From the IMG/VR virus record IMGVR_UViG_2879765931_000001: DNA of 30,734 nucleotides; one strand, given 5' to 3'. This stretch comes from a virus (taxonomy: Duplodnaviria; Heunggongvirae; Uroviricota; Caudoviricetes). Shown one piece after another: positions 11,579 through 19,480 of this stretch (position 1 is the first letter of the stretch; each line of letters starts with the position of its first letter). The translations under genes were made by a program, and so were the position numbers. The notes beneath the pieces were generated by a model that saw only the letters and a program-made list of their open reading frames with translations, was not told where the DNA came from and searched no databases.

Positions 11579-14317
11579 TACCGGTATGCTCCACTTAACC
11601 GGCCACCATCACGGGCCTGCTGTTGCATAAAGTCCGCGGCCGCTTTTTTCCCGAGGTCATAAACCACCTTCAGGGCAGCCGGACCTATCTGCCCGTTCGT
11701 GCCGTCGTTATTGATCTCAATGTTGTACTGCGGGGCAAACATCACCATGCCTGAACCACCAGTATCCGCCACAACCCCCAGCTTACCATCAGCACCGCGA
11801 CGCAGTGGCAGAATGGCTTCAGGTCCCGCTTCCCCCATCACACCCGCGCCTTTTGCAAAAGCAAAAAACGTCGGACGGTTAACCACCGTGCCACTGTAGC
11901 GACTCAAATCAGCAGACTGGTAAACACCGCCATCAGCATTAGTCGTGAAGCCGAATAAAGAACCGACGCCCTTTACCGCCTGCATCATGGCCATCTGTGC
12001 CATAATTCTGGCCATATCTGACAACAGGGAAGAGGTGAAGGATTTAAAATTCAGCTTACCGGTGGTACAGAATGTCGCCAGTGCATTACCGGCACTGCTG
12101 AATGCCACTGTAAACATCTGTTCTGCCGTTCCCGCCGCATTATCCGCATCCGCCGTAAAATTCTGAAACGCCCGCATGGCACCGTTTTTCCAGTCGCCCT
12201 GCGCCACTTCCAGTTCCTGCCAGTAGCGTTTGTTTTCATTCAGTTGTCGCTTCAGGCTCCCCTTCAGCACCTCCTCAGCCCTCCGGTAGTCCTCCGTCCC
12301 GTAAGTGCCTTTCTGGCGACTGTCATTCTCAAGCTGTTGCAACTGTTGCCGGTATTCCTGCCGGATGCGCAACTGTGCCTGGTAGCGCTGCCGCTGCTTA
12401 TCCCCCATACCTGCAGTGGCAATATCCAGATTGTGCTGCTCACGCAGTGCACGTTCTTTGTCTGCCAGCTGGCTGGTCAGCTGAACCGTTTTTTTTTCTC
12501 AGGTCGTTAAGCGCTGTCTGTTTCTGCAGCTCCTGCTGTTTCACATCCAGCAGCGTCAGCGCCTGAATCAGCTCATTCTTACGGGCCAGCACACTCTTTT
12601 CATCTGCCGTCAGCTTTTTCCCGTCCAGGTCGCTGATGCGCTGCTGCAGGGCCAGAAGCTGTTTATGCGCTTCAGTCATCCTTTCAGTGGCAATGCCTGC
12701 TGACTGTCTGGCAGCAGCAATCTGCCCTTCCACCTGTGCCTGCTGCTGACTGTACTGCAGCAATAACCGGGTGGCCTCATCATTACGGGTTGCCCGTGTA
12801 TTTTTCTTAATGGCTTTTTCGTAACGTTCATTTTCACGCTGTATCGCCGCATCCCTGACAGCCTGGTCGGCGTACTGCATGGCATTAATACGCGCAATTT
12901 CCCGCTGATGTCGTGCAGCTTCCGTTTCATTCATCCGGTTCAGCGCGGCATTTTCAGCATTCCGGCGTTTCTGTTGCTCCTGGTAATTCCGTTCTGCCTG
13001 CGCTTTTGCATCCTGCAAATCCTTCCGGCGTTTTTTCTCCTGAAGATCGTTAAGACGCTGCTGATCGTACTCCACCTGTGTGGAGGCGTTTGTCCACGGA
13101 TATTTTTTCGCGCGCTGAATTTTTTCCTGTAACGCATCAATCTGCGCATCCAGCGAGTCTTCACGACCAATATTCATGGCCGCATCCCAGAACTGCTTCC
13201 ACCAGTCAGACAAGGTTTGCAGCGTACTACCCAGCGCATTGAGATTATTATCAATATCAGATGTGCGTTTACCGGTTTCCTCTGCCAGCGCAGACATGGC
13301 GATCCGGGCCGCATCACTGGACCGCCCCTGCTCCCCAAGGACGCGTATCTGCTCAAGCTGAGTGGCATTCAAAAAATGCAGCGCATTGTCCAGCGCCTTC
13401 GCGGCATTTACAGGATCATCCTTCAGCCGCTTAAACTGATTTATGGTATCGCTGACCGACTGGCCAACCGATCGCTCCATCTGTGCGGCAGCTTTCGCCA
13501 CCATACCAATATCGTTTCCATGAAATGCCCCACTGCCCACCACCTGTGCCAGCGCACCGGCTGCCGCATGTTGCGTGATACCATTCCCGGATATGGCCCG
13601 GCTGAGTTTCCACAACTGCCCGACAGTGACACCGGCATAATGTCCCGTCAGCGCCAGCTGACGGTTAAATTTCTCGCCCTCCTTCCGGCCGTCATGCCAG
13701 GCTTTACCCAGACCCAGGACCGCCGCGACAAGTCCGCCAATAACGCCGCCAGTCATCATGCCTTTCGGCGACATCAGTGCGCCTGTCCATCCGGCACGGT
13801 TAGCCAGCGTTATCCCGGATCCCCTCAGCGCACCAAAATTGCCGCGCGCCATCTGACTGATTAACACCCCCAGCTCCCGCCGGGCTGCCGCACTTTTCAG
13901 CCCCAGCGAATGTGTGGCTTTTCCTGCCCGCTCCATTTTGCGGATATACACTTCTGCAGCACTGCTTACCCCCAGCTGAGCCGCCCTGGCCTGCGCCTGT
14001 TCCTCGCGCATTTTCTGATTCAGGGCATCCACGCGCAGACGGGTTTGTTCCACCTCACGGGCCATGCGTTCATGAGCCCGTGCATTCTTCTCCACCGTCT
14101 GCGCATGGGCTGATGCTGCTGTTGCAGCCGAAGAAGCCGCCTGCATTGTCTGCCGGGCCGCCTGAGTCTGACGCTCCATAAAACGCTGCATACGGGCAGA
14201 AGACCGTTCTGCATCGCTGGCTGCACCATTCAGAAGGTTTTTGATACGGGGAATTTCATTTTTAAACTCTGCCGCATCAATCCCCAAATCAATGACCAGG
14301 TTGGCTATCTGGTCCAT
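11578..14317 (-). pseudogene. H: Tail tape measure protein H, interrupted by a frameshift in a 9-nt homopolymer
   Basis: N-terminal ORF (12440-14347; likely ATG at 14317 with GGAGGTG RBS) and C-terminal ORF (11578-12408, ending ...GQIGPAALKVVYDLGKKAAADFMQQQARDGGRLSGAYR like lambda H) are in different frames; the switch is at plus 12489-12497 (T9 / A9 on the coding strand); removing one A restores a continuous reading frame. Confidence 0.82.
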
Positions 14318-15013
14318 AACGCACACCTCCGGAAATACCTTCCCCAAGATGCATCAGTTCTTCGTCCGTTCGCTCCGGTATCCCGTTCTCTTCCGGTAAA
14401 AGGCTGAAATCAGCCACCGCAGCATCGCTGCTGCCGGACACCATTCTCACGATCAATGCCTTCAGCGAGGCAAACTGCGCATCCATCCACACATCACTGA
14501 AGCTCTGCATCCGGAAATAATCGCCCCACTCACCAAGCTCAGTGGCCGACATATCCGACAGCATCCGCCGCCAGTCTGCCCGCCGGAACTCCCGGGCAAG
14601 CCGCATGACAAACTGCATTTCCCGCGTCAGGACTTTTCCGGCGTCAGCGCCTCATGATCATCATCCCCGGCATTCTCAATGGTCCCCATACCGCTCAGCG
14701 ACAGAACCCTCTCCGCCCCCGCGCCCAGCGCATCATACGACCATGTTGTCATAATGGATGCGCAAAGCGTCTCAACATCCTGAGACTGCTCAGCATTCCA
14801 CAGTGAGCGGGAAACCAGCCAGGCATTGATATCCATTCCCATACGCAGAAAAGCAATCTGTCGTTCAGCCTCCGGCAGTTCTCCCTCCTGTGCATCAAAC
14901 TTTGCCGTTCGCTGCTGAACAAACGTCAGATATTCAATTCTCTGCAGCCCGGACAGCTCACTGAGCACCACGGACTGTTTTTCATAATTAAACGTATCCT
15001 GTTTCAGAAACAT
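14289..15013 (-). CDS. T: Tail assembly chaperone G-T fusion (inferred -1 programmed frameshift near the 3' end of G; T frame 14289-14651)
   Basis: The T frame is open from 14651 and overlaps the last 8 codons of G; the only slip-prone stretch in the overlap is CCGGAAAAG, at the position where lambda has GGGAAAG; conserved G/T arrangement of lambdoid phages. Confidence 0.6.
14627..15013 (-). CDS. G: Tail assembly chaperone G
   Basis: MFLKQDTFNYEKQSVVLSELSGLQRIEYL... resembles lambda gpG; ATG at 15013. Confidence 0.85.
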   Translation of the reverse strand: MFLKQDTFNYEKQSVVLSELSGLQRIEYLTFVQQRTAKFDAQEGELPEAERQIAFLRMGMDINAWLVSRSLWNAEQSQDVETLCASIMTTWSYDALGAGAERVLSLSGMGTIENAGDDDHEALTPEKS

Positions 15014-15071
15014 CATGTTCTCCGGATGCAAAAAGCCCCGGATAACCGGGGCAATGATGAGTATCGTCCTG

Positions 15072-17567: not shown

Positions 17568-18056
17568 ACCCGCTCCTGATTGAATGAAAAACGGGAGCAT
17601 TTAGCTCCCGCTCACGGATTATTTCACCTGCACCACCACAAACTCATCCGGATCCGGCAGCACCATCAGCGGCGCGGACTGCGTCATGGTGAATTCACGC
17701 GCCGGATCACCCACGGTCAGCCAGTGTTTCGGATAACGGGAAGACGCCACCACGCCTTCAGACAATGCCTGCGCATCCTGAATGGCACCGTAGCAACGAA
17801 TACCCTCTGCGGCCGTATTTCCCAGTACCAGTGTGCCGTCCGGCAGATAACGTTTTTCGGTACCGTCCTCTGCCACATAGGACGTTTTTGCCACCACGAT
17901 TGCCAGATCACCATAATACCCTTTGAAGGACACCACCGCCCCCAGGTCTTTCACTGCCGTTTCCAGCTGTGAATTTGAGCCACGACGGGTATCCAGTTTT
18001 TGGTAATGCTGCCAACTTACTGATTTAGTGTATGATGGTGATTTTAAGGTGCTTGC

Positions 18057-18332
18057 GTGGCTTCCATTTCCATCAGATGTCCTTCCTGCTCCGCTACTGA
18101 AGGCGTGGTGCGTAACGGCAAAAGCACTGCCGGACATCAGCGCTATCTCTGCTCTCATTGCCGTAAAACATGGCAACTACAGTTCACTTACACCGCCTCT
18201 CAGCCCGGTACGCACCAGAAAATCATTGATATGGCCATGAATGGCGTCGGATGTCGCGCCAGTGCACGCATTATGGGCGTTGGCCTCAACACGGTTTTAC
18301 GTCACTTAAAAAACTCAGGCCGCAGTCGGTAA
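18057..18332 (+). CDS. insA: IS1 InsA (transposition inhibitor / DNA-binding protein)
   Basis: 91 aa [43 protein letters not shown]... matches InsA. Confidence 0.92.
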
Positions 18333-18754
18333 CCTCGCGCATACAACCGGGCAGTGATGTGATTGTCTGCGCTGAAATGGACGAACATTGGGGCTACGTC
18401 GGTGCTAAATCACGTCAGCGCTGGCTGTTTTACGCGTATGACAGGATACGGAGGACGGTTGTGGCGCACGTCTTCGGGGAACGCACTCTGGCCACACTGG
18501 AGCGTCTTCTGAGCCTGCTGTCGGCCTTTGAGGTCGTGGTATGGATGACGGATGGCTGGCCGCTGTATGAATCACGCCTGAAGGGAAAGCTGCACGTTAT
18601 CAGCAAGCGTTACACTCAGCGCATTGAGCGACATAATCTGAATCTGAGACAACATCTGGCAAGGCTGGGACGGAAGTCACTGTCGTTCTCAAAATCGGTG
18701 GAGCTGCATGACAAGGTCATCGGGCATTATCTGAACATAAAACACTATCAGTAA
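18251..18754 (+). CDS. insB: IS1 InsB reading frame (expressed as InsAB' transposase via -1 frameshift at the A6C motif 18309-18315)
   Basis: InsB-like translation (...[33 protein letters not shown]...MTDGWPLYE...); TTAAAAAACTC slippery motif at the end of insA. Confidence 0.88.
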
Positions 18755-19480
18755 GTTGGAGTCATTACCCAGTTTTTCGCGGAACAGCTTAAAGCCATTC
18801 AGCAGACGCCAGACCTTACCATCCATAATGGCAATATTGATGGTGCCGGAAGCAAAATCACAGTACGCATCCAGATCATGCGTCGGATCAAAGGTATCGC
18901 GGTCCTGAGCGCTCCACTCCGTCCCTCCTGCCTGCGTAATGTTATTTCCCACCGACCGGCCAAAATCGACCTCAACAGTTTCAAACTGCTCTCCTTCCAT
19001 GGTGTATTTGCCATACAGCACGGCATTCACCGCCTGCATCTCTTCCACCTGGACAATGGCGTGCTCTTCCTGTTTGAGGTTATCGGTGATGATACGCAGG
19101 CGACGGTAAGCCGGGTCGTTCAGCTGGGCCGGATCTTCACCGGGAAGACGCTCCACCGCCTGCTGGTAATTAAATTCGTGTTTCGGCTTAACGTAGCCCG
19201 GGCGCAGTACACGAGTTTCACCGCCACGGTGACGCAACACCTTTCCTTCAACAACCGGGGAGACATAGGCCGCCACCGGCGTTTTTCCGGTAATTTTGTC
19301 CAGCATTACCTCTTCGGTATGGAAATTCACCGTACGGCGGAAAAACAGCTCCAGAAACAGCGCACGAAATTTAACTTTTTGTTCGGTATAACCGAGTAAC
19401 TGGCGGGTCGTAAACAATCCCATAAATCAGTTCCTTTCATTCAGAAATCAGTCAGGCTACCGCAGTGACCTGATAAAATG

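What the first reader, a model, noticed from the sequence alone, without database searches (positions are those of the whole stretch)
14627..14651. G/T overlap preserved but without the canonical GGGAAAG slippery heptamer
The T frame opens at 14651 and overlaps the last 8 codons of G, as required for the conserved -1 frameshift that makes gpGT. The only candidate slip site in the overlap is CCGGAAAAG, which is not a perfect X XXY YYZ heptamer. Either frameshifting uses a non-canonical site here, or G-T production is impaired.
Basis: partly seen in the sequence, partly recalled or inferred. Interest (0 to 1): 0.4.

Follow-up and report, generated by a model that had tools for sequence, protein, structure and literature searches.

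The report
Known GGAAAAG tail-chaperone frameshift site
The phage tail-assembly genes G and T here overlap at GGAAAAG instead of lambda's GGGAAAG, but this one-base variant is the usual, already annotated frameshift site of many related phages (N15, phi80, HK97, mEp460), so the finding is ordinary.

Summary
On the minus strand, G ends at TGA 14629-14627. The T frame (-1 relative to G) opens at 14651. The 25-nt overlap holds no X_XXY_YYZ heptamer, and the only shift-prone string is G_GAA_AAG (14639-14633).

This is not decay. The heptamer sits, without gaps, at the position of lambda's G_GGA_AAG and differs by one G-to-A change. The same junction occurs in viable phages (mEp460, Ayreon) and in all 80 related viral contigs examined. 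A >=95%-identical G-T segment is in 1,835 E. coli records.

Among 34 divergent G/T junctions from many enterobacterial genera:
- 27 carry G_GAA_AAG.
- The rest carry G_GGA_AAG, G_GTA_AAG, G_GCA_AAA, G_GGA_AAA or A_GAA_AAG.
- Synonymous positions are fixed: wobble G before the P codon in 33/34, AAG in 31/34, GAA in 28/28.

GenBank records of N15 and LLS already annotate GGAAAAG as the -1 slippery sequence.

Most likely mechanism: a low-level -1 shift in which tRNA-Lys re-pairs AAG to AAA and tRNA-Glu re-pairs GAA to GGA with a G-U pair. This would give a 242-aa gpGT.

No stimulatory structure was found. Efficiency is untested, and in vitro work calls this heptamer weakly slippery.

The prophage itself is defective. 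Verdict: already known, low interest.

The parts
14627..15016 (-). Gene G, the tail assembly chaperone (129 aa from ATG 15016; a second ATG lies at 15013). Stop TGA is at 14629..14627.
   Evidence: ORF list and translation. Pfam PF06894 Phage_TAC_2, E=1.4e-39. Annotated as gpG in the 99.9%-identical EIEC prophage.
14633..14639 (-). Slip site G_GAA_AAG (GGAAAAG). The P-site codon is GAA (Glu) and the A-site codon is AAG (Lys). After the -1 shift the tRNAs sit on GGA and AAA.
   Evidence: It aligns in register with lambda GGGAAAG. It is conserved in 27 of 34 divergent junctions. The same heptamer is annotated as the slippery sequence in N15 and LLS.
14627..14651 (-). G/T overlap window. The T frame is open from 14651 and the G stop ends at 14627. 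The shift must occur within this window.
14289..14633 (-). T part of gpGT, read in the -1 frame starting with GUC at 14633..14631 (VLTREMQFVMRLAREF...) and ending at stop 14291..14289. The predicted fusion gpGT is 242 aa.
   Evidence: Translation. Pfam PF06223 Phage_tail_T, E=2.1e-14. Homologues.
14650..14653 (-). GAGG, a weak Shine-Dalgarno-like string 10 nt 5' of the heptamer. It is a possible minor stimulator, but it is not conserved across the family.
   Evidence: The duplex-energy test is confounded by the Glu-rich tail of G.
15030..15052 (-). Intrinsic-terminator-like hairpin plus T run between the major tail gene V and G.
   Evidence: Homologous features are annotated as terminators in mEp460, Ayreon, N15 and HK97.

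Best explanation
This is the standard lambda-type G/GT tail-assembly-chaperone recoding site in its GGAAAAG form. Most ribosomes translating G terminate at TGA 14629..14627 and make gpG (129 aa). A small fraction slip back one nucleotide while GAA (P site) and AAG (A site) of G_GAA_AAG (14639..14633) are being decoded. tRNA-Lys (anticodon mnm5s2UUU) re-pairs perfectly from AAG to AAA. tRNA-Glu re-pairs from GAA to GGA, keeping the first and third pairs and forming a G-U pair in the middle. Translation then continues with GUC CUG ACG... in the T frame to the stop at 14291..14289. The product is a 242-aa gpGT, whose G part should bind the tape measure and whose T part should recruit the tail tube protein, as in lambda. 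What is shown here: the anatomy, the phase, the positional homology with lambda, the nucleotide-level conservation and the prior annotation in other phages. What is inferred: that the shift actually happens at this heptamer, that both tRNAs slip, and that the yield is low (a few per cent or less). In this particular window the prophage is defective, so the site is probably no longer used, although it is intact.
For: 1) G (PF06894) and T (PF06223) lie between V and H, and T is in the -1 frame.
2) The heptamer is at a fixed, gap-free distance from the conserved T motif LAREF..DWR. That is exactly where lambda has G_GGA_AAG, and the two differ by one G-to-A change.
3) In 72 distinct G/T protein pairs, 61 have G_GAA_AAG in phase in the overlap.
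4) In 34 junctions less than 90% identical to each other, heptamer positions 1, 3, 4 and 5 are invariant while the flanks vary.
5) The preceding codon varies (GCG, CTG, CCG, ACG, GTG, TTG, ATG, AAG) but ends in G in 33/34, against a background of 0.33. Lys is AAG in 31/34 (background 0.40). Glu is GAA in 28/28 (background 0.59).
6) The identical junction occurs in the viable phages mEp460 and Ayreon, and G-T segments about 96% identical occur in cdtI, Tritos and HannyBb. Matches of at least 95% identity occur in 1,835 E. coli records, and 1,847 of 5,426 genomes have a match at any identity.
7) The N15 record marks GGAAAAG as 'slippery sequence for -1 translational frameshift'. The LLS record marks 'minus-one programmed translational frameshift site GGAAAAG' with a joined CDS. 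HK97, phi80, Gifsy-2, mEp213 and mEp237 have the same heptamer in phase.
8) T has no conserved start codon of its own: ATG at the window's position occurs in only a minority of relatives.
9) Literature: A_AAG is the most shift-prone tetramer in E. coli (PMC4066793). NNA_AAG motifs support -1 shifting (PMC5009743). G-U re-pairing of tRNA-Glu on GGA is discussed for phage slip motifs (PMC10885494).
Against: - No experiment on this sequence exists in what I could read.
- In a reconstituted E. coli system, AUG GAA AAG gave mainly 0-frame product. The authors called it unfavourable for slippage because of the second-position mismatch of tRNA-Glu on GGA (PMC6924986).
- No significant downstream structure was found (z = +0.5 and -0.83).
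- No consensus structure appeared across 34 relatives.
- The upstream SD-like GAGG is weak and not conserved.
- The conservation statistics ignore shared ancestry among the sequences.
- The copy in this window sits in a defective prophage, so present-day function is doubtful.
Confidence: 0.85

Rival explanations
1. The shift occurs at the same place but by single-tRNA slippage. Only the A-site tRNA-Lys moves from AAG to AAA (hexanucleotide NNA_AAG mechanism), and the P-site tRNA-Glu merely frees the third base A without re-pairing.
For: The NNA_AAG mechanism is described in E. coli (PMC5009743). Relatives tolerate G_GTA_AAG and G_GCA_AAA, whose P-site tRNAs would have a true middle mismatch. 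Morganella loci have A_GAA_AAG, which loses the first-position match.
Against: Heptamer position 0 is G in 33 of 34 divergent junctions, although it is a synonymous wobble position of varying codons. That is what P-site re-pairing of the first base predicts. Tetramer-only sites were barely shifty without a pseudoknot (PMC4066793), and none is detectable here.
Confidence: 0.25
2. T is made as a separate protein from its own ATG at 14618..14616, as automatic annotation has it, and no frameshift is needed.
For: PGAP and several phage records annotate a stand-alone 'tail assembly protein T' starting at this ATG.
Against: The start codon is not conserved. At that position 32 of 34 relatives have C, not A, and the next candidate position is ATG in only about a third. 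The only purine-rich string before the ATG (GGGAA) abuts it directly. The T frame stays open back across the heptamer in all relatives. In lambda, T is made only as gpGT (PMC5009743).
Confidence: 0.05
3. The slip site is degraded. GGAAAAG is a mutated GGGAAAG, and gpGT production is impaired in this lineage.
For: It differs from lambda by one base. The in vitro data rank it as poorly slippery. This prophage copy is otherwise decayed.
Against: The same heptamer is found in plaque-forming phages (mEp460, Ayreon, N15, phi80, HK97, LLS) and in most divergent relatives, with fixed synonymous positions.
Confidence: 0.03
4. The frame change is made at the RNA level by transcriptional slippage on the A run.
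For: None specific. The site contains only four As.
Against: A run of four As is much shorter than those known, from my background knowledge, to give polymerase slippage. The conservation pattern (G at position 0, G at position 6) fits tRNA re-pairing, not homopolymer length.
Confidence: 0.01

Closest known systems
Phage N15 genes 14/15 (also phi80/LLS, mEp237, mEp213, HK97 gp13/14, Gifsy-2): G/GT frameshift at GGAAAAG
   Same: The heptamer G_GAA_AAG is identical, in the same phase and at the same distance from the conserved T motif. The gene order V-G-T-H is the same. The N15 and LLS records annotate this heptamer as the -1 slippery sequence.
   Different: Proteins are only about 35-55% identical to the window's G-T. 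In N15 and phi80 the G stop lies 5 codons after AAG; here, as in Gifsy-2, it lies 1 codon after.
Phage mEp460 / cdtI / Ayreon / Tritos G-T
   Same: About 96% nucleotide identity over G-T. The junction sequence CCGGAAAAGTCCTGA is identical in mEp460 and Ayreon. These are viable phages.
   Different: Their records annotate G and T as separate genes with no frameshift. The window copy lies in a defective prophage.
Phage lambda G/GT, slip site G_GGA_AAG (Levin, Hendrix & Casjens 1993; PMC5009743)
   Same: Homologous G and T domains (PF06894, PF06223). Same position of the heptamer and the same A-site codon AAG. No obvious stimulatory structure.
   Different: Heptamer position 3 is G in lambda, so the P codon is GGA and tRNA-Gly re-pairs fully. 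Here it is A, so the P codon is GAA and tRNA-Glu re-pairs with a G-U middle pair. Protein identity is about 34%.
NNA_AAG hexanucleotide -1 frameshift motifs (B. subtilis cdd CGA_AAG, IS1222; Licznar et al. 2003, as summarised in PMC5009743)
   Same: The A-site tRNA-Lys slips from AAG to AAA, with A as the third base of the preceding codon.
   Different: Those cases lack a matching base before the P codon or rely on a pseudoknot. Here a conserved G precedes GAA, and no structure is detected.

Membership tests
Lambda-type G/GT tail assembly chaperone with -1 programmed frameshift | A G-like chaperone gene sits between the major tail gene and the tape measure gene. | tested here: met
   PF06894, E=1.4e-39. 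The order V-G-T-H is seen in the window ORFs and in the 99.9%-identical annotated prophage.
Lambda-type G/GT tail assembly chaperone with -1 programmed frameshift | A T-like ORF lies in the -1 frame, overlaps the 3' end of G, and has no conserved start of its own. | tested here: met
   PF06223, E=2.1e-14. Frame and overlap are shown. Start-codon positions are not conserved.
Lambda-type G/GT tail assembly chaperone with -1 programmed frameshift | A perfect X_XXY_YYZ heptamer lies in phase in the overlap. | tested here: not met
   None in the 25-nt overlap. The near-cognate G_GAA_AAG is present instead.
Lambda-type G/GT tail assembly chaperone with -1 programmed frameshift | The slip site is conserved in position and phase among relatives, beyond what coding needs. 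| tested here: met
   Gap-free register with lambda. Synonymous positions are fixed.
Lambda-type G/GT tail assembly chaperone with -1 programmed frameshift | A gpGT fusion is produced at a low ratio to gpG and is required for tail assembly. | not testable with these tools
   Needs protein detection or genetics.
GGAAAAG-type G/GT slip site (N15, phi80/LLS, HK97) | The heptamer GGAAAAG is phased G_GAA_AAG in the G frame, inside the G/T overlap. | tested here: met
   Window 14639..14633. The N15 and LLS annotated features read GGAAAAG. HK97, phi80 and Gifsy-2 have it in phase.
dnaX/IS911-type stimulated -1 frameshift | A downstream hairpin or pseudoknot lies 5-9 nt after the heptamer. | tested here: not met
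   MFE z-scores of +0.5 and -0.83. The alifold consensus is essentially empty.
dnaX/IS911-type stimulated -1 frameshift | An upstream Shine-Dalgarno-like element lies about 10 nt 5' of the heptamer. | tested here: inconclusive
   GAGG lies 10 nt upstream in the window. Enrichment across relatives gives p=3e-4, but this is confounded by the Glu-rich tail, and the element is absent in the phi80 group.

The most novel reading that the evidence does not exclude
G_GAA_AAG is the commonest natural G/GT slip site in the sampled enterobacterial lambda-like tails, yet reconstituted translation treats it as nearly non-slippery. One reading is that an unrecognised in vivo stimulator exists, such as the nascent acidic G tail, the conserved Glu codon four codons upstream, or the nearby stop. 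Another is a special dependence on the mnm5s2U34 modification. Here both slipping tRNAs (Glu and Lys) carry it, whereas in lambda only tRNA-Lys does. That would make these phages doubly sensitive to the host tRNA-thiolation state.
Probability: 0.15. Interest if true: 0.4.

Novelty: already known. Interest (0 to 1): 0.1.

Why it matters
It matters little for discovery. The site is an ordinary, previously annotated form of a textbook recoding event.

Its practical value is for annotation. In the records examined here, automatic and depositor annotation often lists G and T as separate genes (E. coli CFSAN029787 by PGAP, mEp460, cdtI). Scanners restricted to X_XXY_YYZ heptamers will miss the fusion. 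The survey suggests a more useful search rule for this family: G_GNA_AAR in phase, 0, 1 or 5 codons before the G stop.

A minor scientific point also remains. A heptamer used as a 'poorly slippery' control in vitro is the majority natural site in this sample. This fits the very low gpGT:gpG ratio that tail assembly needs.

Tried and rejected
- Downstream stimulatory structure. Folding of 80-nt and 161-nt segments gave z = +0.5 and -0.83. RNAalifold over 34 relatives gave no consensus. The individual 70-nt segments average z = -1.7, but without a shared fold, so I did not count this as evidence.
- Upstream SD-like element. It is statistically enriched. I rejected it as a defining part because the G tail is Glu-rich (GAG/GAA) and the phi80 group lacks it.
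- GGGAAAT at 14623..14617 as a hidden lambda-like site. Rejected: it lies after the G stop and is out of phase.
- Heptamer frequency as evidence. GGAAAAG occurs 7 times in the window against 4.55 expected, which is not significant.
- Literature searches for the literal motif mostly returned primer sequences. Licznar et al. 2003 and Xu et al. 2004 are not held, so their details are cited only through the review PMC5009743 or marked as my own recollection.
- Independent T start, decay of the site, and transcriptional slippage were each considered and rejected (see the rival explanations).

Full report
**1. The observation.**
The relevant genes are on the minus strand. Reading that strand, gene G ends ...GAG GCG CTG ACG CCG GAA AAG TCC TGA, with the stop at 14629..14627. 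The frame one base behind it (the T frame) carries TGA at 14654..14652 and is open from 14651: GGC GCT GAC GCC GGA AAA GTC CTG ACG CGG GAA ATG.... A scan of the overlap finds no X_XXY_YYZ heptamer in phase. The only context that lets an A-site tRNA re-pair is G_GAA_AAG at 14639..14633. The string GGAAAAG is not rare in itself, with 7 copies in the window against 4.55 expected. Any weight must come from position and conservation.

**2. What the genes are.**
The predicted fusion (G through Lys, then the T frame) is 242 aa. It matches Pfam PF06894 (lambda tail assembly chaperone G, E=1.4e-39) followed by PF06223 (minor tail protein T, E=2.1e-14). The neighbours are the major tail protein upstream and the tape measure downstream. 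An intrinsic-terminator-like hairpin lies between V and G, as annotated in mEp460, Ayreon, N15 and HK97.

**3. Positional homology with lambda.**
Anchoring 74 distinct junction sequences on the heptamer shows that the downstream T motif (..F..L.LAREF.R.DWR..) is in the same register in all of them, lambda included, without gaps. Lambda has GCG GGA AAG at exactly the place where the window has CCG GAA AAG. The window's site is thus lambda's G_GGA_AAG with one G-to-A change at heptamer position 3. The T-frame reading GKVL matches the residues of lambda gpGT around its shift.

**4. Is it decay or design?**
- The identical junction CCGGAAAAGTCCTGA is present in the plaque-forming phages mEp460 and Ayreon, and in a 99.9%-identical prophage of EIEC strain CFSAN029787.
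- Seventeen phage records, including cdtI, Tritos and HannyBb, carry a G-T segment about 96% identical.
- Of E. coli complete genomes, 1,847 of 5,426 carry a matching G-T segment; 1,835 records match at 95% identity or more.
- A profile of T homologues retrieved 55 loci from species-representative genomes of many enterobacterial genera and 80 viral contigs.
- Of 72 distinct G/T protein pairs, 61 have G_GAA_AAG in phase in the overlap. The others have G_GTA_AAG (Pantoea), G_GCA_AAA-stop (Kluyvera, Ewingella), A_GAA_AAG-stop (Morganella), G_GGA_AAG (Edwardsiella) and G_GGA_AAA-stop (Providencia).
- In 34 junctions less than 90% identical to each other, heptamer positions 1, 3, 4 and 5 are invariant. 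Position 0 is G in 33, position 6 is G in 31, and only position 2 varies (A 28, G 3, C 2, T 1). The flanks carry little information.
- Position 0 is the wobble base of a codon whose amino acid varies (GCG, CTG, CCG, ACG, GTG, TTG...), yet it is G in 33/34 against a background third-position G frequency of 0.33.
- Lys is AAG in 31/34 (background 0.40) and Glu is GAA in 28/28 (background 0.59).
- These binomial figures ignore shared ancestry, but the pattern clearly shows selection on nucleotides, not on amino acids.

**5. Already known.**
The GenBank/RefSeq record of phage N15 carries a misc_feature 'slippery sequence for -1 translational frameshift' whose bases are GGAAAAG. The record of phage LLS (phi80-like) carries 'minus-one programmed translational frameshift site GGAAAAG' and a joined CDS. 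HK97 (CGG GAA AAG, CDS 'translated due to a -1 frameshift'), phi80, Gifsy-2 ('G+G' frameshift hybrid protein'), mEp213 and mEp237 all have the same heptamer in phase. Other relatives use G_GGA_AAG (lambda/DE3, Stx2a_EH1535, PhiR12_1) or A_AAA_AAG (Stx2_95, Stx1_131719). The PRFect tool derived non-'threethree' motif classes from annotated phage frameshifts and discusses G-U re-pairing of tRNA-Glu on GGA (PMC10885494).

**6. Mechanism.**
- Established knowledge: E. coli has a single tRNA-Lys (mnm5s2UUU) that reads AAA and AAG.
- A_AAG is the most shift-prone tetramer in E. coli, and cognate A-site re-pairing is the main rule for bacterial -1 shifting (PMC4066793).
- NNA_AAG motifs support low-level -1 shifting, and efficiency rises when the P-site tRNA can also re-pair (PMC5009743).
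- Here the P-site tRNA-Glu moving from GAA to GGA keeps pairs 1 and 3 and has G opposite U35 in the middle.
- The conserved G at position 0 argues that this P-site re-pairing matters, so I favour two-tRNA slippage with a near-cognate P site.
- A one-tRNA mechanism remains possible, given the G_GTA_AAG, G_GCA_AAA and A_GAA_AAG variants.
- Against high efficiency: a reconstituted E. coli system gave mainly 0-frame product on AUG GAA AAG, and the authors called it unfavourable (PMC6924986).
- This is compatible with biology, because lambda needs only about 1 gpGT per 30 gpG (PMC5009743; about 4% in PMC3296357).

**7. Stimulators.**
I found none that is convincing. The downstream 80-nt and 161-nt segments fold no better than shuffles, and there is no consensus structure across relatives. 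A GAGG lies 10 nt upstream in the window, the spacing known from my own recollection for dnaX. However, SD-like strings at that place are not universal, and their enrichment (p=3e-4) is confounded by the Glu-rich C-terminus of G. The 0-frame stop lies 0, 1 or 5 codons after AAG in different lineages; here it is 1.

**8. Rivals.**
- A stand-alone T from ATG 14618, as PGAP annotates, is unlikely. That start is not conserved and has no spaced ribosome-binding site.
- Decay of the site is contradicted by sections 4 and 5.
- Transcriptional slippage on four As is implausible.

**9. Context of this copy.**
Compared with the EIEC prophage, the window's prophage differs in four ways:
- IS1 is inserted in the major capsid gene (18002..18768).
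- About 8.6 kb, from the lysis genes to the head protease, is missing (junction near 20147..20155).
- There is an in-frame 303-nt deletion in the tape measure gene.
- An A9 run replaces A8 in that gene (12497..12489), which breaks its frame.

The slip site is intact but sits in a defective element.

**10. Verdict.**
The 'non-canonical site' reading is supported, and the 'impaired' reading is not. The feature is a known variant of a known recoding signal. Interest is low.

Noticed in passing
window 18002-18768: IS1 (insA/insB ORFs at 18057-18754) is inserted in the lambda-like major capsid gene. The flanks align to adjacent positions of the intact EIEC prophage with a 9-bp overlap, consistent with a target duplication.
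   Followed up: partly
window ~20147-20155: Relative to the CFSAN029787 prophage, about 8.6 kb is missing (L003 2094-10695: lysis genes, terminase, portal, protease, decoration protein). The prophage cannot make heads.
   Followed up: partly
window 12489-12497 (minus strand): The tape measure gene H carries an A9 run where the intact relative has A8. This splits H into ORFs 14317-12440 and 12408-11578. It could be a real frameshift mutation, a sequencing error, or a slippage-prone tract.
   Followed up: partly
window ~13983-13990: There is an in-frame 303-nt deletion in H relative to the EIEC prophage, bounded by an 8-nt repeat. It would shorten the tape measure, and hence the tail, by 101 residues.
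   Followed up: partly
window 15030-15052 (minus strand): A strong intrinsic-terminator-like hairpin (7 G-C pairs plus a T run) lies between the major tail gene V and G. Homologous features are annotated in mEp460, Ayreon, N15 and HK97. It may lower G/GT/H transcription relative to V.
   Followed up: partly
window 14617-14623 (minus strand): GGGAAAT lies just after the G stop. It looks like lambda's slippery string but is out of phase and beyond the stop, so it is a trap for motif scanners.
   Followed up: yes
L012, L014, L015, L016, L036, L037, L040, L047, L052 (G/T overlaps): The family-wide slip-site pattern is G_GNA_AAR: GTA in Pantoea, GCA+AAA directly before TAG in Kluyvera and Ewingella, and A_GAA_AAG before TAA in Morganella. 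In 8 of 34 lineages the stop codon immediately follows the heptamer.
   Followed up: partly
window 14650-14664 and homologous columns -14..-12 of the junction alignment: A Glu codon (GAG/GAA) four codons before the P-site codon is conserved in 31 of 34 divergent G genes. It is conserved at the amino-acid level, not the nucleotide level, and its role is unknown.
   Followed up: no
L003 27556-29198: The near-identical prophage in EIEC CFSAN029787 carries a frameshifted ipaH effector gene next to its tail fibre genes. Shigella flexneri loci (L006, L009) share the window's exact G-T junction variant, which hints at a Shigella/EIEC origin of the window.
   Followed up: no
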